Origin: a virus
DNA: 64,000 nt
Direction: 5' to 3' (one strand)
IMG/VR virus record: IMGVR_UViG_3300025120_010481
Location: 15,204 to 79,203 of that record
Positions 46,383 through 54,005 of this stretch are shown here, piece after piece (the stretch's first letter is position 1; every line of letters begins with the position of its first letter). The notes under the pieces are model-generated. The model did no database searches, was not told the origin of the DNA, and saw only the letters and a list, made by a program, of their open reading frames with translations. Position numbers and translations under genes: made by a program.

Positions 46383-46471
46383 AATATAACCTTTCTTTGT
46401 AAAACACACCAAAAGATTATACACACTTATTTTAAATATTTAGTTTTATATTTAAATTGACACCCTTTTCA

Positions 46472-47686
46472 TTATACAAACAACTCTTTTATAATTTTTC
46501 CTGAGTTTGCTATCTTCATAGGTCGCCCACCGTTGCTTGTATAAGTGGTCTCCAACGAAATGCCAAGAGCATTACAAATCGACACCATTACATCTTCCGA
46601 AGAGTGGCTTTCTGTTTCTACTTTTGTTCCGTCTTCGTTTGTTGAACCTACAGATATACCACCATTCATACCAGCCCCACCCACAACCACACTCCAGCTT
46701 CTTGCCCAGTGGTCTCGTCCGGCGTTCTGGTTGATTTGTGGTGTTCTACTAAACTCTCCCATCCATATGATAGCCGTGTCGTCAAGCAGTCCTCGCTGCT
46801 CTAGGTCTTCTATTAACGCACTCATGCCTTGGTCTAGCATGGGTAACTTTGTGTCTTTTAATGTTGGAAAAATATTCTGATGGTTGTCCCAGCCGTTTAG
46901 CCCGACCTCGATAAATGGAACGCCAACCTCAACAAGCCTTCTAGCCATTAGACATCCCTTGCCAAAGCTGTTGTCCCCGTATCGTTCCTTAACGGAATCT
47001 GGCTCTACGTCCACCTTCATTGCGTCCATCTCACTACTGGTCAAAACATCAAATGTTTTTCGCAGTATCTTTTGATGTTCTTTAGCGAGAGACCCTCTAT
47101 TGTTTTTTATGAAGTTGTTTTCCATTAAATGTAGGGCTTGTGCCCTTTGACGGAATCTATCATCTATTTTTAAGTCTAGATTTCTAATTCTACCATCGCT
47201 GTTTACCACGAACGGAGAATATTCAGCACCTAAAAATCCACCTCCAGCACTTGGCCCATTAACTGACACAAACTGAGGTATCAAAAGGTCTTCTCTCTCT
47301 AGCTCTTTAGAAAGAATAGCTCCGTAACTTGGGTGAACCATATTTGGATTAGGCACATAGCCTGTGTGCATGTAGTAACGACCCCGCATGTGGTCAGCTT
47401 CACGGGTACTCATGCTTCGCACAATAGCCATGTTGTGCATCTGCTTTGCCATTAGCGGCATATGCTCACAAATTTCTACATCTCCGGTTGTACTTATGGG
47501 CTTGAATGGGCCACCAGTTGGTGCGTCTGGTTTTAAGTCCCATATGTCCATCGTTGACGGGCCACCTCCCATCCAGAGAAGTATGGCCGATTTGCCCTTT
47601 TTCTTTAATTCCTTCTCGTTAGCCTTGAGGGTTTGCGTTAAAGCGGCAAGCCCAGCTAGTGATGATAAAAACTGTCTTCTTTTCAT
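46472..47686 (-). CDS. DUF1501 family protein with Tat signal (abundant in Planctomycetes)
   Basis: MKRRQFL Tat motif, LWMGGGPS.MD.WDLKP, GCLMARRLVE.GV.F, GWDNH, GEFSRTP.IN..GRDHW. Confidence 0.9.
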   Translation of the reverse strand: MKRRQFLSSLAGLAALTQTLKANEKELKKKGKSAILLWMGGGPSTMDIWDLKPDAPTGGPFKPISTTGDVEICEHMPLMAKQMHNMAIVRSMSTREADHMRGRYYMHTGYVPNPNMVHPSYGAILSKELEREDLLIPQFVSVNGPSAGGGFLGAEYSPFVVNSDGRIRNLDLKIDDRFRQRAQALHLMENNFIKNNRGSLAKEHQKILRKTFDVLTSSEMDAMKVDVEPDSVKERYGDNSFGKGCLMARRLVEVGVPFIEVGLNGWDNHQNIFPTLKDTKLPMLDQGMSALIEDLEQRGLLDDTAIIWMGEFSRTPQINQNAGRDHWARSWSVVVGGAGMNGGISVGSTNEDGTKVETESHSSEDVMVSICNALGISLETTYTSNGGRPMKIANSGKIIKELFV

Positions 47687-47704
47687 TTTTCTTGTATCCT
47701 TATC
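47629..47704. repeat. 76-bp imperfect direct repeat, copy 1 (5' end + RBS region of the DUF1501 gene)
   Basis: 70/76 identical to 48378-48453 by manual alignment. Confidence 0.9.
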
Positions 47705-47739
47705 CTGAATATTTTTGCTGTTGTTTTACTTTTACCGTG

Positions 47740-48435
47740 TTACTTGCGATTGTCAGGGTAGCGAAGAAACATGACTAAATCGTCACCGCACTCTGAAAGA
47801 GTAAGTTCACTGACTTCATTCTTTCCCGGTTTCATGTTCGCGATGTCATCGGGAGTTTCAATCTCCCCATTTGGCCCCGCTGAAACCACGCGAATGAATT
47901 TGGATTCTGTTTGATTGATGATTCCGTCTTGGTCAAAATCGACCTGTAACTCAAGTTCATTTCCCCAACCATCCACGATTGTTGGTTCACCAGTTTCGTT
48001 TCGCCCCGTCGCACGCACATAGGGGCCATGCCAGCCAATTTTGTTGACCGGATCGTAGTTTTTAAGTTCGGGGGCGGCTTCTTCCATGTGGGCTGGTGCA
48101 TCCTCTTTGAGGAGATCGTTGATTTCTCTTGGAAGAGCATTTGTCTTGTGTGACAGTGACTCAATAACACCGTCTTCCCCCGCCATCGCTTCACGAACGG
48201 TATTCAGCGTAGCCTGCGTAGCAATTTCGACAGGGCTGTTGGACTCACCAGAAGGCGAGGTGATATCAATATTGTTAAACGTGGTGAATATGAGGGCGGT
48301 CGCGATTAAAATCACCAATACGACTAATAGTTCGAGGAGCGTCAAACCACGTTGATTTAAGTGATGACGCGATCCACGGGTTTGAGTTAAAGCAGCAAGT
48401 CCAGATAGCGATGATAAAAACTGTCTTCTTTTCAT
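47740..48435 (-). CDS. Chimeric protein: duplicated DUF1501 Tat leader fused to a prepilin-type N-terminal cleavage/methylation (pseudopilin GspG-like) protein
   Basis: MKRRQFLSSLSGLAALTQT + QRG|LTLLELLVVLVIL, GWHGPY, DGWGN, VVSAGPNG; GC higher than the flanks. Confidence 0.8.
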   Translation of the reverse strand: MKRRQFLSSLSGLAALTQTRGSRHHLNQRGLTLLELLVVLVILIATALIFTTFNNIDITSPSGESNSPVEIATQATLNTVREAMAGEDGVIESLSHKTNALPREINDLLKEDAPAHMEEAAPELKNYDPVNKIGWHGPYVRATGRNETGEPTIVDGWGNELELQVDFDQDGIINQTESKFIRVVSAGPNGEIETPDDIANMKPGKNEVSELTLSECGDDLVMFLRYPDNRK

Positions 48436-48453
48436 TTTTCGTGTATCCTTATC
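48378..48453. repeat. 76-bp imperfect direct repeat, copy 2
   Basis: See 47629-47704. Confidence 0.9.
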
Positions 48454-48493
48454 TTTATATTCCTGCTTATTTTTTATTTTGTAAATCCGTTAG

Positions 48494-48510
48494 CGTGTCA
48501 AACTGACACA
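48494..48510 (-). promoter_or_regulatory. Candidate bacterial SECIS hairpin
   Basis: UGUGUCA-GUU-UGACACG begins 13 nt after the in-frame UGA at 48526-48524. Confidence 0.45.
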
Positions 48511-48511
48511 A

Positions 48512-49780
48512 TTACCAAGCTCGTCACGACCAATATCTGGCTTTCCATTTAGGCCCCGGAGTTTCGCATTTATGCCTAGCTCTAAATGACTTTCTCCTAG
48601 CTGGATCAGACTTCTTGATTCTCATATTTGGATCGCCAAAGTTAACCTTTACTACGTTACCCTTTTCGTTTTTAACATAAACAGATCGTTTTTTCGGGCC
48701 ATCTGGTGTTAGAAACGGTTTCCCTAGTTTAACTTTTCTACCTTGATATTCTGCTGCTCTTACGGGAACCAAGTTCCTGCCATCCTTTGTGTAAATACCT
48801 TTCCTTTCAAATTCATAAATTTGTCCGGTTTTAAGGTCTTTGTACTTGTACCCAGCCTTGTCTTTACGTAAAAGCTCAAAGTCTTCCTGAGTAATTTTAC
48901 CATCTTTATTTTTGTCTAGAGCTTTCTTCTGCTTGTCTGACATTTTAGCTTTAGATTTTCTAGGATGCCCCTTTGGTAAAAGATCGTTGTCTTGCGTATA
49001 AGCTGCGTTCTTTGGTCTGCCAGTTCTAAGCAGATGAATGAAAGCGTTTACTCTAGCCATAGCCCACCCATCTCTAGACATCTTGGGGGCGTGACTTGTT
49101 GAAAATGCTCCAGCACCTCGACGGTATACGGCTTTGAGCATACCGAGAGTCGCTTTTGATCCCTTGTCCTTGTCGTTATGTTCCTTTGCCTTTTTGGATA
49201 GTCTTTCAGTAGTGTTCTTACTGAAGGTGATTTTACCGCTAGGATTTTTTGCACTGTCTGGCTTGTTCTTTTTCGAGCCTTTTTTCTGGTCTTTTTTTGG
49301 AGCGGGGGTTCTTCTTGGATCACTAGGCTTTGCTTCTGCCTCAAAGAAATCTTTAACAGAATCATATTCTTGATTTTGGGCACGTTTCAATTGGTCTTTA
49401 GTTGGCCTGCCTTCTTTGACTGTCTTAGCAGGCTTATAATCGTCGCCCTCTCTTTGCTTTTTTCGTCTGATGTTTTCCCAAAGTCCCGGCTTTGCCACAG
49501 AAATATCCCATTCTTCTGTTTCTTCTCCCCAATCTTCATACTCTTCTTCGGACGGAACGTAAAAGTTGTCTTCGTTGATCGCCTCTGTGTAGCCATCGTG
49601 AATAACGTCATGGGCAAAAGCAGCAGAGCTTAGAGTTTCCAAGCCTTCTAACGCCTTGGACATGCAGACCGCCATTCTTTGGGAGTTGTCTTTAAACTCT
49701 TGAATTGACTTTTCGTCAGACATACATCTAGACAAAAAGTTTTCCCTTGATTCTCCGTCTTTTTTTGATGGAAGTGGCAT
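48512..49780 (-). CDS. Multidomain basic phage protein (DUF5824-like, EF-hand, C-terminal RARHxC..RYWS(C) domain); UGA at 48524-48526 possibly read as Sec
   Basis: LKAVYRRGAGAF..WAMARVNAF; EF-hand DKNKDGKITQED; KVNFGDPNM..RKSFRARHKC..KARYWS-UGA-RAW-UAA. Confidence 0.7.
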
Positions 49781-49790
49781 TGTTGCTCCT

Positions 49791-50459
49791 TTAGATTTTG
49801 TGCTTTATGTCTTGCCATATAGCTGAAGTGATAACCATAGCAGCATCGTTGTCTGAGGGGTAGTGAACCCCCTGTAAAACACGAGCGTGACCAGCTAGAT
49901 TGGCTATTTCGTAAAACTTAGATGATTGTTCTGGGTAAATATCTGATAGAATTGATGCCATTAAAGTGGCATATGCTGTGTGCCCAGATGGATAAGCTGG
50001 GGTTTGATGGCTTTTAGTTTTAATTACATTGATAGTAATATCGTTGTAAAACCTTGGGAAAGCCGAAACTAACTGTTCGGGTCTAGGTCTATTGAATTTA
50101 TTTTTCAGAGATATAACAATAGGCTCTAAAATATTCCAAGACTTTTTAAACTTTGCAGCAGGCAACGGAAGGATGTCCGCACCTAGAAGTTCAACGAACA
50201 ACAGGTTCGGGTCTTTGTCTACTAGCATTACTAGGTTTTTCTCAGCCGCCGTTAGTGACTGAGTAAGCTCTGAGACTAGCTTTAACTCTGATTTGGTAAC
50301 ATCGCTAGTGTTTTTAGGTGGTTCAGTAAGCACCCCATATGGCTTTATCGAAACCAAATCGCTGAATTCGGTATCTTCTGGGGGTTTTTCCTCTCTGTAG
50401 CCCAGTCTGTCAATATTTTTCAACATTGATTCGTTAGCTTGCAATATAAACTTGCTCAA
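49791..50459 (-). CDS. PAP2-superfamily phosphatase/haloperoxidase-like protein
   Basis: KNKFNRPRP, YPSGH, ARVLQGVHYPSD. Confidence 0.88.
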   Translation of the reverse strand: MSKFILQANESMLKNIDRLGYREEKPPEDTEFSDLVSIKPYGVLTEPPKNTSDVTKSELKLVSELTQSLTAAEKNLVMLVDKDPNLLFVELLGADILPLPAAKFKKSWNILEPIVISLKNKFNRPRPEQLVSAFPRFYNDITINVIKTKSHQTPAYPSGHTAYATLMASILSDIYPEQSSKFYEIANLAGHARVLQGVHYPSDNDAAMVITSAIWQDIKHKI

Positions 50460-50464
50460 TTTAC

Positions 50465-51043
50465 CTACCTCGACTTGAAAAATGCTTCAATTAAACTTTC
50501 AGAATTTTTAAACTCATTAGATATACACAAATTTTGAAGAGTTTTCTTGACTTCCCCTGACTTATAGCCCAATGTTTTTAAGGATTTTATTGACTCTTTG
50601 ATTAAATCGTTGTTTTTGTTTAGATTTTTTTCAGGTTGGGGCTTGGAAGAATTAACCTTGGCAGTCTTTAACTTTTTGCTTTTGACAGAAGTGTGGCTTT
50701 TTTCAGGGCTTTTCTTGCTTTTGATTGGCCTTGTCTGCTTAACAGGCTTGATTACCTGCTTAACGGGCTTGCTTCTCCGCTCAACGGGCTTGCTTCTCCG
50801 CTTAACGGGCTTGCTTCTCCGCTTAGGCTGTTGTGGCATTTTGCTTACAAAGTTGACGACAATCGGCTCGTAAGGTTCAGTCACTTGATGTGAGATACTT
50901 TTACTCTCATGCACCACGAATAATCCTTTAATCGTCGAAGAAGAACCAATAAAACAGTTGAGGAAGTGAATAAATATCGGAGAGGTAAAGCTCAAAAATA
51001 ATATTATAGCAAAGTAAGAATCGTAAAATCCTGTATCGTTCAT
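50465..51043 (-). CDS. Membrane-anchored protein with basic repeats and RuvA C-terminal-like domain
   Basis: N-terminal TM; (RRSKPVK/E)x3; SIKSLKTLGYKSGEV..LIEAF. Confidence 0.55.
   Translation of the reverse strand: MNDTGFYDSYFAIILFLSFTSPIFIHFLNCFIGSSSTIKGLFVVHESKSISHQVTEPYEPIVVNFVSKMPQQPKRRSKPVKRRSKPVERRSKPVKQVIKPVKQTRPIKSKKSPEKSHTSVKSKKLKTAKVNSSKPQPEKNLNKNNDLIKESIKSLKTLGYKSGEVKKTLQNLCISNEFKNSESLIEAFFKSR
50762..50824. repeat. 21-bp tandem repeat x3 (coding)
   Basis: aacgggcttgcttctccgct(c/t) x3. Confidence 0.9.
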
Positions 51044-52880: not shown

Positions 52881-52924
52881 TTTAAAAAAATTATTTCCGA
52901 TACAACACGGAATTTGAAATCATA

Positions 52925-52948
52925 AAAGTCCGTTTTTTACAGAAACGG
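52925..52948 (-). terminator. Terminator after tmRNA coding piece
   Basis: CCGUUU..AAACGG stem followed by ACUUUU. Confidence 0.55.
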
Positions 52949-52959
52949 TTTGCATAAAA

Positions 52960-53200
52960 CTGGCTATGTTGGATGATAAGGTATAGCACCTCAGACAGCC
53001 TACGCTGCCATTGCGAAACTTGCGTTTGCAAATAACATTTTAGTCTGATTTTTAGAGAGCCATCAGACCAACTCTCTGTTGCGGTCATTGTTTCTTTTTG
53101 TCAGTCGATTCCATTACGTCCCCTTGATTTGGCAAGTGGAGACGGCGGGATTCGAACCCGCGTCCTGCACAAACTTCTGCAATAACGTCTACAACAATAT
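52960..53200 (-). ncRNA. ssrA: Circularly permuted two-piece tmRNA: acceptor piece ~53200-53137, 13-nt intervening segment, coding piece 53123-~52960; tag (A)ANASFAMAA
   Basis: Acceptor piece ends GACGCGGG-TTCGAAT-CCCGC-CGTCTCC-A; coding piece starts GGGGACG-TAATGGAATCGAC; 7-bp acceptor stem with G3:U70; PK1 GAGAG/CTCTC + GTCTGAT/ATCAGAC; tag at 53029-53000. Confidence 0.92.
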
Positions 53201-53212
53201 CCCCGAAGGGAG

Positions 53213-53285
53213 AGCCGCCTGTGGGAGTCGAACCTACAACCTGAGACTTACAAAATCCCTGCTCTGCCAATTGAGCTAAAGCGGC
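53213..53285 (-). tRNA. tRNA-Thr(UGU)
   Basis: GCCGCTT/AGGCGGC acceptor, GCTC/GAGC D-stem, loop TT-TGT-AA, TTCGACT T-loop; CCA not encoded. Confidence 0.93.
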
Positions 53286-53909: not shown

Positions 53910-53932
53910 TTAAGAGACTCTCAATGTCAAAG

Positions 53933-54005
53933 CTGTGAGAACAGGACTCGAACCTGTGACCAAGAAATTAACAGTTTCCCGCTCTACCAACTGAGCTACC
54001 TCACA
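53933..54005 (-). tRNA. tRNA-Asn(GUU)
   Basis: TGTGAGG/TCTCACA acceptor, G73, loop CT-GTT-AA, ACAGG-TTCGAGT-CCTGT. Confidence 0.93.

What the first reader, a model, noticed from the sequence alone, without database searches (positions are those of the whole stretch)
47629..48453. Apparent recent gene capture: host-like pseudopilin gene fused to a duplicated Tat leader of DUF1501
Seen: a 76-bp segment (RBS region plus the first 19 codons, MKRRQFLSSL[A/S]GLAALTQT) occurs twice with 70/76 identity. The copies flank a ~640-bp higher-GC segment (45% and 58% in two hand-counted 60-mers, versus AT-rich flanks) encoding a prepilin-type protein (G|LTLLELLVVL, GWHGPY, SAGPNG). The product carries both a twin-arginine motif and a class III signal. 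Inference: a cellular gene was inserted by recombination that duplicated the resident gene's start and so gave it expression signals. The pilin could interfere with host pili or T2SS, for example in superinfection exclusion.
Basis: partly seen in the sequence, partly recalled or inferred. Interest (0 to 1): 0.72.

Follow-up and report, generated by a model that had tools for sequence, protein, structure and literature searches.

The report
Phage captured host pilin gene
A marine phage of Mariniblastus-like planctomycetes has spliced most of a host pilus-subunit gene in frame behind a duplicated copy of its own DUF1501 gene start; donor gene, pilin-free site and both junctions can all be seen, and the phage copies carry tracts matching different host alleles.

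Summary
Two minus-strand genes, a prepilin (47740-48435) and DUF1501 (46472-47686), start with the same 76 nt (70/76 identical). The repeat extends to about 104 nt at 86%.

Between the copies lie 641 nt (47737-48377) that match a cellular gene at 92.9% nucleotide identity, exactly from the leader junction to the stop codon. That gene is the middle of three prepilin genes in a type IV filament operon (PilT-, PilB-, PilC-like) of Mariniblastus-type Pirellulaceae.

The window's closest relatives carry one leader and no pilin. About 80 other phage contigs with DUF1501 also lack it. At least four further phage contigs share both junctions, so this is one event and not an assembly chimera.

New here:
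- Phage copies are not monophyletic. One is 97.7% identical to a host allele.
- Two are mosaics of different host alleles (p about 1e-4), which suggests allele exchange after capture.
- The pilin-free contigs nest inside the occupied clade, so they may be secondary deletions.
- The Tat-like part looks unconstrained: Asp sits in the h-region of several alleles.
- Some phage alleles replace the cell-invariant Pro22.

Function is inferred only. Phage-encoded pilins that block pilus-dependent phages are a published precedent. The scan noted this same stretch once more in an overlapping window, but not on other DNA.

The parts
48378..48480 (-). Repeat copy A: intergenic tail, ribosome-binding site and first 19 codons, now the start of the chimeric prepilin. 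The core is 48378-48453.
   Evidence: Upstream of the core it stays collinear with the single-leader relatives (L009/L010).
47737..48377 (-). Host-derived segment. It runs from 11 codons before the prepilin cleavage site to the stop codon plus about 3-5 nt.
   Evidence: 92.9% nt to cellular contig L090 over window 48379..47737. Junction alignments. GC 0.48, GC3 0.479.
47740..48435 (-). Chimeric prepilin ORF, 231 aa: 19 aa from the DUF1501 Tat-type leader, 11 aa of native leader, then a 201-aa mature pilin after RG|LTLLE.
   Evidence: AF2 model of the mature part: pLDDT 96. Pilin fold closest to EpsG/PulG.
47629..47732 (-). Repeat copy B: the duplicated intergenic tail, ribosome-binding site and first 19 codons that still head DUF1501. 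The core is 47629-47704.
46472..47686 (-). Resident DUF1501 gene with a twin-arginine leader. It is an older host-derived gene of this phage group.
   Evidence: Pfam E 1e-102. Found in 80 IMG/VR loci at 63-98%. 69% aa to one ortholog in Mariniblastus MAGs. GC3 0.422.
47791..47878 (-). Tract inside the phage pilin that matches a different host allele (L088 / Mariniblastus sp. ANT-37 type) rather than the L090 type of the rest.
   Evidence: 16 of 17 discriminating sites; triplet test p = 1e-4. Phage contig L097 carries an L088-type tract over the same region and further 3'.
48524..49780 (-). Upstream 418-aa gene. The pilin start lies 88 nt after its annotated stop, on the same strand, with no promoter-like site between.

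Best explanation
What happened (shown). A large tailed phage of Mariniblastus-type Pirellulaceae already carried an old host-derived DUF1501 gene with a twin-arginine leader. A promoterless, 5'-truncated piece of a host gene was then joined in frame after codon 19 of DUF1501. The host gene is the middle of three prepilin genes of a type IV filament operon. The piece runs from 11 codons before the prepilin cleavage site to just past the stop codon. About 104 nt of the target (intergenic tail, ribosome-binding site, 19 codons) ended up on both sides. The pilin therefore gained translation signals and an N-terminus, and DUF1501 kept its own. The event happened once and is shared by a small phage clade.

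How it happened (inferred). The junctions share only 2-3 nt with the donor and nothing else was brought in. I infer illegitimate, microhomology-level joining of host DNA between two staggered phage genome copies, or template switching during replication. Transposition does not fit.

After capture (inferred, moderately supported). The phage copies kept exchanging sequence with chromosomal alleles of more than one host lineage.

How it works (inferred). The gene is translated from the duplicated DUF1501 start, probably on one transcript with its neighbours. The hybrid 30-aa leader stays cytoplasmic and is removed by the host prepilin peptidase at RG|LTLLE. The twin-arginine part would then be a passenger. 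The mature GspG-like pilin would enter the host's type IV filament machine. Most likely (about 0.45) it alters or blocks that filament and protects the infected cell from pilus-dependent superinfection, as phage-encoded FimU and PilA homologues do.
For: Capture and donor:
- 92.9% nt identity to cellular contig L090, delimited exactly by the leader junction and the stop.
- The cellular gene lies in a conserved pil265-pil236-pil298-p444 cluster followed by PilT-, PilB- and PilC-like genes, on contigs up to 108 kb and in named Mariniblastus MAGs.
- Phage copies sit at the tips of a broad Pirellulaceae family (367 clusters at 50% identity).
- Host-like GC3.

Duplication and pilin-free site:
-.
- 80 DUF1501 phage loci, with the pilin in only one of them. 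Four more occupied contigs came from the metagenome scan.

Single event:
- Identical 5' and 3' junctions in all occupied contigs where that junction is on the contig, and three derived substitutions shared by the pilin-side leader copies.

Not an artefact:
- Independent assemblies, plus unitigs from other studies that bridge each junction.

Exchange after capture:
- L098 phage allele is 97.7% identical to the L090 cell allele (dS 0.056), while phage alleles differ from each other by dS 0.28-0.53.
- Phage copies are not monophyletic.
- Mosaic tests give p = 5e-5 and 1e-4 for phage alleles, and no signal for cell alleles.

Leader as passenger:
- Native leaders of cellular homologues vary from about 5 to 45 aa.
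- Position 11 is never charged in 72 DUF1501 leaders, but is Asp in five or more pilin-side alleles.

Pilin nature:
- N_methyl and TIGR02532 pass.
- AF2 pLDDT 96.
- Best structural matches are EpsG (Z 7.4) and PulG (Z 6.8), and the top 13 rows are all pilins.

Functional precedent: PMC12952977.
Against: - Function is not tested at all.
- The phage protein is 93-98% like host alleles, so it could simply replace or supplement the host subunit.
- Low dN/dS between phage alleles (0.03-0.07) may reflect selection in hosts if tracts are repeatedly imported. It therefore does not prove selection in the phage.
- One database allele (P0009) is frameshifted at its C-terminus.
- The PHI test is only modest (p = 0.014) and not significant within the five closest sequences.
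- Mosaicism could also come from unsampled host alleles that are themselves mosaic.
- The pilin-free contigs nest inside the occupied clade, so they cannot by themselves show the pre-insertion state.
- Short-read unitigs break at the 31-nt identical core of the repeat. No single read-level record here spans both copies.
- No prepilin peptidase gene lies in the 79-kb record, which is about 51% complete.
Confidence: 0.8

Rival explanations
1. The captured pilin is a neutral or short-lived passenger. On this view it is an accident of illegitimate recombination, tolerated because the duplication kept DUF1501 intact, and easily lost again by recombination between the repeats.
For: Pilin-free contigs nest inside the occupied clade, consistent with loss. 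There is one frameshifted allele, P0009. The nonsynonymous rate is raised on the phage side (L098 vs L090: omega 0.21, against 0.007-0.025 between cells). Cell-invariant Pro22 is replaced and a residue deleted in the transmembrane helix in some alleles.
Against: The ORF is intact and the in-frame fusion kept in at least eight distinct alleles from many samples. It persisted while flanking DUF1501 genes diverged to dS 0.6-0.7. A 104-nt direct repeat should delete quickly without selection.
Confidence: 0.2
2. The gene acts as an auxiliary gene that supports the host filament rather than blocking it. It would supply a rate-limiting subunit so that pilus- or T2SS-dependent functions (adhesion, uptake, secretion) continue during infection.
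For: Very high identity to host alleles and a strongly conserved family (cell-cell omega 0.007-0.025). Several phage alleles keep Pro22. It sits next to another host-derived exported protein.
Against: There are phage-specific changes at otherwise conserved or polar sites: P22T, T143I, and a one-residue deletion in the helix. No other component of the machine is encoded in the record. The published phage pilins act in defence (PMC12952977).
Confidence: 0.2
3. The similarity of different phage copies to different host alleles comes from several independent captures, or from mosaic host alleles not yet sampled. It would not then come from exchange after a single capture.
For: Host alleles are poorly sampled. 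The PHI test within the closest five sequences is not significant (p = 0.34).
Against: Independent captures would not reproduce the same in-frame 5' junction after codon 19, the same 3' junction a few nt after the stop, and the same derived substitutions in the leader copy. The sampled cell alleles show no mosaic signal in the same test.
Confidence: 0.15
4. The twin-arginine leader is functional. It would reroute or jam the prepilin, through Tat targeting or poor processing, and make a dominant-negative 'poison' subunit.
For: The RRxFL motif is intact in all pilin-side copies. A basic stretch follows the h-region, as in Sec-avoidance signals (sequence).
Against: The h-region carries Asp in five or more alleles, which none of 72 DUF1501 leaders do. 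The signal-peptidase region of the DUF1501 leader (LKA|N) was not duplicated. Conservation of RRxFL may only reflect the short time since duplication or constraints on the translation start.
Confidence: 0.12
5. The arrangement is an assembly chimera of phage and host reads.
For: Metagenome assembly; the pilin body is 90-98% like host DNA present in the same waters; unitigs break at the repeat core.
Against: The same junctions occur in IMG/VR, JGI, TARA and ENA assemblies of different samples. A 778-nt unitig covers 47662-48439, and unitigs of two other studies bridge each junction. The leader copies carry copy-specific substitutions.
Confidence: 0.02

Closest known systems
Phage-encoded type IV pilus components: P-FimU of F10-like Pseudomonas prophages, and P-PilA of Xylella prophages and virulent Pseudomonas phages (Sztanko et al., Cell Rep 2026, PMC12952977)
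   Same: A phage carries a homologue of a structural subunit of its host's type IV filament. In the published cases the phage protein enters the pilus and blocks adsorption of competing phages.
   Different: This copy is far closer to the host gene (93-98% nt, against about 50% aa for P-PilA). The host is a planctomycete. The gene is a chimera with another gene's leader, and donor, junctions and a pilin-free site are all visible. No function has been tested here.
T2SS major pseudopilin GspG (EpsG 4lw9, PulG 5wda, EHEC GspG 3g20)
   Same: Class III signal with Glu5, a long N-terminal helix, and a small alpha-beta head. These are the best structural matches (Z 7.4 and 6.8). The DGWGNE and SAGPNG motifs recall GspG motifs; that resemblance is from my own knowledge and was not tested.
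   Different: About 70 residues longer. It fails the Pfam T2SSG and TIGR01710 thresholds. The host operon has a PilT-like ATPase, which fits a retractile pilus better than a classical T2SS.
Morons and auxiliary genes acquired from hosts by illegitimate recombination
   Same: A host gene with host-like composition sits between conserved phage genes and is absent from close relatives.
   Different: Morons usually bring their own promoter and terminator. Here a promoterless, start-less fragment was rescued by an in-frame fusion and a 104-nt duplication of the neighbour's translation start.
Small phage proteins that inhibit type IV pili (Tip, Aqs1, PfsE)
   Same: Possible outcome: superinfection exclusion through the pilus.
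   Different: Those are small inhibitors of PilB or PilC with no similarity to pilins. This is a full pilin.

Membership tests
Type IV pilin / pseudopilin (prepilin, class III signal) | Cleavage and methylation motif G|[FMLIV]TLxE with Glu at +5 | tested here: met
   RG|LTLLE. Pfam N_methyl 24 bits (cut-off 21.2). TIGR02532 20.1 bits (cut-off 16.3).
Type IV pilin / pseudopilin (prepilin, class III signal) | Long hydrophobic N-terminal helix followed by a compact alpha-beta head | tested here: met
   AF2 model pLDDT 96, pTM 0.85, helix over residues 3-23 and 38-55. The top 13 VIA-align rows are all pilins, best Z 7.4, rmsd 3.3, 101 aligned. The PDB profile search hits pilin N-termini only.
Type IV pilin / pseudopilin (prepilin, class III signal) | Helix-breaking Pro22 (type IVa pilins and T2SS pseudopilins; PMC5059446) | tested here: not met
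   Thr in the window allele, plus a one-residue deletion just before it. Pro in 27 of 27 cellular homologues and in phage alleles P0002-P0005.
Type IV pilin / pseudopilin (prepilin, class III signal) | Encoded with, or served by, an assembly machine (PilB/GspE, PilC/GspF, prepilin peptidase) | tested here: inconclusive
   The cellular orthologue lies upstream of PilT-, PilB- and PilC-like genes. The 79-kb phage record has none, and no Peptidase_A24, so it must rely on the host. The record is about 51% complete.
T2SS major pseudopilin GspG (PF08334, TIGR01710) | Passes the family model | tested here: not met
   No PF08334 hit for the window protein; 3 of 87 family members hit it. TIGR01710 14.3 bits against a cut-off of 88.85.
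T2SS major pseudopilin GspG (PF08334, TIGR01710) | GspG head fold | tested here: inconclusive
   The best matches are EpsG, PulG and EHEC GspG, but at Z 7.4 / 6.8 and Foldseek E 0.05.
Twin-arginine (Tat) signal peptide | (S/T)RRxFLK-type motif | tested here: met
   KRRQFLS in both copies. RR and F are invariant in 72 phage DUF1501 leaders.
Twin-arginine (Tat) signal peptide | Uncharged h-region followed by a signal-peptidase site | tested here: not met
   The DUF1501 cleavage region (LKA|N) lies outside the duplicated 19 codons. Position 11 is Asp in P0002-P0005, L097 and L102, but never charged in 72 DUF1501 leaders. The window allele has Ser.
Twin-arginine (Tat) signal peptide | Tat-dependent export | not testable with these tools
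   Needs RR to KK and tat-mutant experiments.
DUF1501 (PF07394) | Passes the family model over its full length | tested here: met
   E 1e-102, positions 2-390 of 390.
Phage-encoded pilus component used for defence (P-FimU / P-PilA type) | Phage gene homologous to a structural pilin of its host | tested here: met
Phage-encoded pilus component used for defence (P-FimU / P-PilA type) | Incorporated into the pilus and blocks phage adsorption | not testable with these tools
   No culture and no assay.
Transposable-element insertion with target-site duplication | Element ends and a transposase; short duplication of fixed length | tested here: not met
   The insert is host coding sequence right up to both junctions. 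It contains no other long ORF with a family match. The duplication is about 104 nt.

The most novel reading that the evidence does not exclude
The phage-borne pilin is in continuing allelic exchange with the chromosomal pilin genes of several Mariniblastus lineages. The phage would then both record its host range and move pilin alleles between hosts. The phage-specific changes (Pro22 to Thr, a shortened helix, T143I, the hybrid leader) would turn the subunit into a decoy or poison that shuts the host's type IV filament to competing phages.
Probability: 0.2. Interest if true: 0.8.

Novelty: new variant of a known kind. Interest (0 to 1): 0.6.

Why it matters
Host-to-phage gene capture is usually inferred from composition and phylogeny. 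Here four things are visible together: the donor operon, both breakpoints, a pilin-free site, and the way a promoterless fragment became expressible by borrowing and duplicating a neighbour's translation start. That is a concrete route by which phages could domesticate host gene fragments.

It extends the recently described class of phage-encoded pilus subunits to uncultured marine planctomycete phages. It also links the phage group to Mariniblastus-type hosts. If the mosaic pattern holds up, the phage and host copies of one gene are still recombining, which would make it a natural marker of who infects whom.

Tried and rejected
The contexts of P0007 and P0008 were obtained instead from a metagenome scan.
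- The first AF2 run, with a 24-sequence alignment, gave pLDDT 53 and was discarded. A deeper 87-sequence alignment was needed.
- Foldseek against the PDB gave no match at E <= 0.001.
- The profile search of PDB sequences matched only pilin N-terminal helices.
- PHROGs has no family for the pilin or for DUF1501.
- The sigma-70 and terminator scan found nothing in or beside the repeat, and no more sites than in shuffles.
- The PHI test on the five closest sequences was not significant.
- No paper in the library mentions Planctomycetes, phage and DUF1501 together. A search on Planctomycetes, pili and phage gave nothing relevant.
- No Peptidase_A24 was found in the 79-kb record, which is only about half a genome.
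- An oligo-dT RNA run holds error-free pieces of the window's pilin allele. These are contigs and DNA carry-over cannot be excluded, so this is not counted as evidence of transcription.
- Logan unitigs cannot span the repeat because of its 31-nt identical core.
- Complex prediction was not used. No binding claim is made.
Full report
**Setting.** The window is part of a 79-kb IMG/VR virus record, estimated to be about half a genome. All long ORFs run on the minus strand. They include DNA polymerase III alpha pieces, a DnaB-like helicase and a ribonucleotide reductase, plus two tRNAs and a tmRNA. Mean G+C is about 0.38-0.40.

- The repeat finder returns a single direct-repeat family, 47629-47704 and 48378-48453, 70 of 76 identical. 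blastn extends it to about 104 nt at 85.6% (47629-47732 vs 48378-48480).
- On the coding (minus) strand each copy holds the end of an intergenic region, an AAGGA ribosome-binding site, ATG and 19 codons.
- Copy B heads DUF1501 (46472-47686, Pfam E 1e-102).
- Copy A heads a 231-aa ORF (47740-48435). It passes the prepilin N-methylation models and reads RG|LTLLE with Glu at +5.

**The segment between the copies is host DNA.**
- The protein has hundreds of cellular relatives in Pirellulaceae. Their leaders vary in length and sequence, and their mature parts are highly conserved.
- A metagenome scan found contigs with G+C 0.47-0.50 that carry it at 81-93% nt. The best, L090, is 92.9% identical over window 48379..47737. 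That span runs exactly from the end of the leader copy to the stop codon.
- In these contigs and in named Mariniblastus MAGs (87-94% aa), the gene is the middle of three prepilin genes. These are followed by a 444-aa protein, a weakly GspM-like protein, a PilT-like and a PilB/GspE-like ATPase, and a PilC/GspF protein.
- GC3 of the captured part is 0.479. The 30 other phage ORFs average 0.362 (sd 0.028, maximum 0.44), and the host operon genes lie at 0.48-0.54.

**Junctions.**
- At the 5' side the phage sequence ...CAAACCC is followed by GTG(G/C)ATCGCGTCATCAC. Cellular alleles read ...GGCCGTTCATCGCG or ...GCAGTGCATCC, so two or three bases are shared.
- At the 3' side, homology to host DNA stops 3-6 nt after TAA. 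The sequence then continues into the diverged outer part of repeat copy B.
- Nothing else was imported: no promoter, no start codon, no neighbouring gene, no element ends.

**Pilin-free sites and distribution.**
- Eighty IMG/VR loci carry DUF1501 at 63-98% aa. Only one of them also has the pilin (tblastn).
- Three contigs (L004, L005=L009, L006=L010) are collinear with the window on both sides, at 90.8% and 94.5%. Their two alignments overlap by exactly the 76 nt. They therefore have one leader and no pilin.
- The occupied state occurs in the window, in L003=L011=L098, and in L097, L099 and L102. It also occurs in several more protein alleles from ENA, JGI and TARA.
- These contigs show the same junctions wherever the junction lies on the contig. 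The pilin-side leader copies aligned (window, L003, L097, L102) share two or three derived substitutions. This points to one event.
- In L003 the cassette lies behind a different upstream gene, with homology starting at the ATG.

**Not a chimera.** In the probable source run a 778-nt unitig covers 47662-48439. Unitigs from two other studies bridge the 3' junction (47662-47790/47840) and the 5' junction (48217/48298-48435/48437). All unitigs end at the 31-nt identical core of the repeat, as expected for k = 31.

**Polarity and age.**
- On a DUF1501 tree the occupied contigs and the three pilin-free ones form one clade (100/100), with the pilin-free ones sister to the window.
- The simplest history is one gain on the stem of that clade followed by one loss, probably by recombination between the repeats. 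Transfer of the cassette between phages is the alternative.
- The single leader of L009 is what a crossover in the identical core would leave, but it is equally what the ancestor would look like.
- DUF1501 dS is 0.20 between the window and L010, and 0.6-0.7 between the window and the other occupied contigs. The two leader copies differ by dS of about 0.35 on only 14 synonymous sites.
- The capture is therefore young compared with DUF1501 itself, which is 69% aa to its orthologue in Mariniblastus MAGs. It is not brand new.

**Exchange with host alleles.**
- The phage copies are not monophyletic. L098 pairs with cell allele L090 (100/99), inside a five-member clade that also holds cell allele L096.
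- L098 and L090 are 97.7% identical (dS 0.056), whereas phage alleles differ from one another by dS 0.28-0.53.
- In sliding windows the window allele is closest to L096 at 120-240 (98.3%), to L090 at 300-480 (97-98%), and to L088 at 480-600 (93%). L097 switches to the L088 type over its last third, at 93-97%.
- A triplet test gives p = 5e-5 (L097) and 1e-4 (window). The same test gives p = 0.4-0.5 for the cell alleles.
- PHI is 0.014 with phage sequences included and 0.28 without.
- The window's L088-type tract is 47791-47878, and L097 is L088-type over the same region. The tract is therefore not an assembly accident of one sample.
- With identical junctions, repeated capture is unlikely. Gene conversion with chromosomal alleles during infection of different host lineages is the best reading. 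Unsampled mosaic host alleles remain possible.

**The protein.**
- With a deep alignment the mature part folds confidently (pLDDT 96, pTM 0.85).
- The nearest solved structures are the T2SS major pseudopilins EpsG (Z 7.4, rmsd 3.3, 101 residues) and PulG (Z 6.8). Other pilins follow. Foldseek agrees weakly.
- It fails the GspG sequence models. It is about 70 residues longer, and its operon has a PilT-like ATPase. I therefore call it a GspG-like type IV filament subunit and leave open whether it is major or minor.
- Between cells it is under very strong purifying selection (omega 0.007-0.025).
- Several phage alleles carry changes at sites that cells never vary or keep polar: Pro22 to Thr (window, P0001, L098/L099); a one-residue deletion just before it (window, P0001, P0009); and T143I/M in most phage alleles.
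- Pro22 is the conserved helix breaker thought to let the N-terminal helix melt on entry into the filament (PMC5059446).

**The hybrid leader.**
- Cellular leaders range from about 5 to 45 residues and are hydrophilic. A 30-residue leader should therefore be tolerated and removed by the prepilin peptidase.
- Only the n- and h-regions of the Tat signal were copied. The LKA|N region was not.
- In 72 phage DUF1501 leaders position 11 is A, S, M or F. In the pilin-side copies it is S, A or, in five or more alleles, D.
- This argues that the twin-arginine part is a passenger, not a working export signal. It is not proof.
- No promoter-like site lies in or next to the repeat. The duplication thus supplies translation signals, and transcription probably comes from upstream.

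**Function.** None of this was testable here. The closest precedent is the 2026 report of prophage FimU homologues that enter the pilus and block tip-binding phages, with PilA-like genes also found in virulent phages (PMC12952977). I rate the options as follows:
- a pilus-modifying or pilus-blocking role, about 0.45;
- a supporting, auxiliary role, about 0.2;
- a tolerated passenger, about 0.2;
- the remainder for a Tat-dependent poison mechanism or something else.

**Verdict.** This is a real and well-delimited host-to-phage capture, with a rare view of the mechanism that made the fragment expressible. There is also evidence that the phage copies later took up tracts from other host alleles. 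It is a new variant of known kinds (morons, phage-encoded pilins) rather than a new category.

Noticed in passing
window 48512-48526 (end of the 418-aa ORF 48524-49780, minus strand): All 22 distinct homologues in related phage loci end ...ARYWSC[RK]xW-stop. The window and its nearest relatives (L004, L005/L009, L006/L010; independent assemblies) have TGA in place of the Cys codon, and still keep RAW-stop in frame behind it. It could equally be a shared nonsense mutation that removes four residues.
   Followed up: partly
window 46472-47686 and loci L136-L138: The phage DUF1501 has one clear orthologue (69% aa, full length including a longer Tat leader) in each of five Mariniblastus-type MAGs. 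These MAGs hold 34-45 DUF1501 paralogues each. With GC3 of 0.422 it looks like an older, partly ameliorated capture from the same host group. It is present in at least 80 phage contigs.
   Followed up: partly
L003 3500-9500 versus window 46400-50500: Gene order around the cassette differs between related phages. In L003 the PAP2 gene follows DUF1501, and a short 205-aa version of the 418-aa protein plus a 113-aa ORF precede the pilin. In the window PAP2 and the long version precede it. The region is a recombination hotspot.
   Followed up: no
window 48436-48523 versus L009 2180-2265: The intergenic region upstream of the leader is about 40 nt longer in the single-leader relatives than in the window's copy A. 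Indels have therefore reshaped it since the duplication.
   Followed up: no
window 52909-53285 and 53932-54005: ARAGORN calls a permuted tmRNA (tag ANASFAMAA) overlapping the tRNA-Thr call, plus a separate tRNA-Asn, all on the minus strand.
   Followed up: no
protein P0009 (ENA): A window-like phage pilin allele with a frameshifted C-terminus. It is either a sequencing error or a decaying copy.
   Followed up: no
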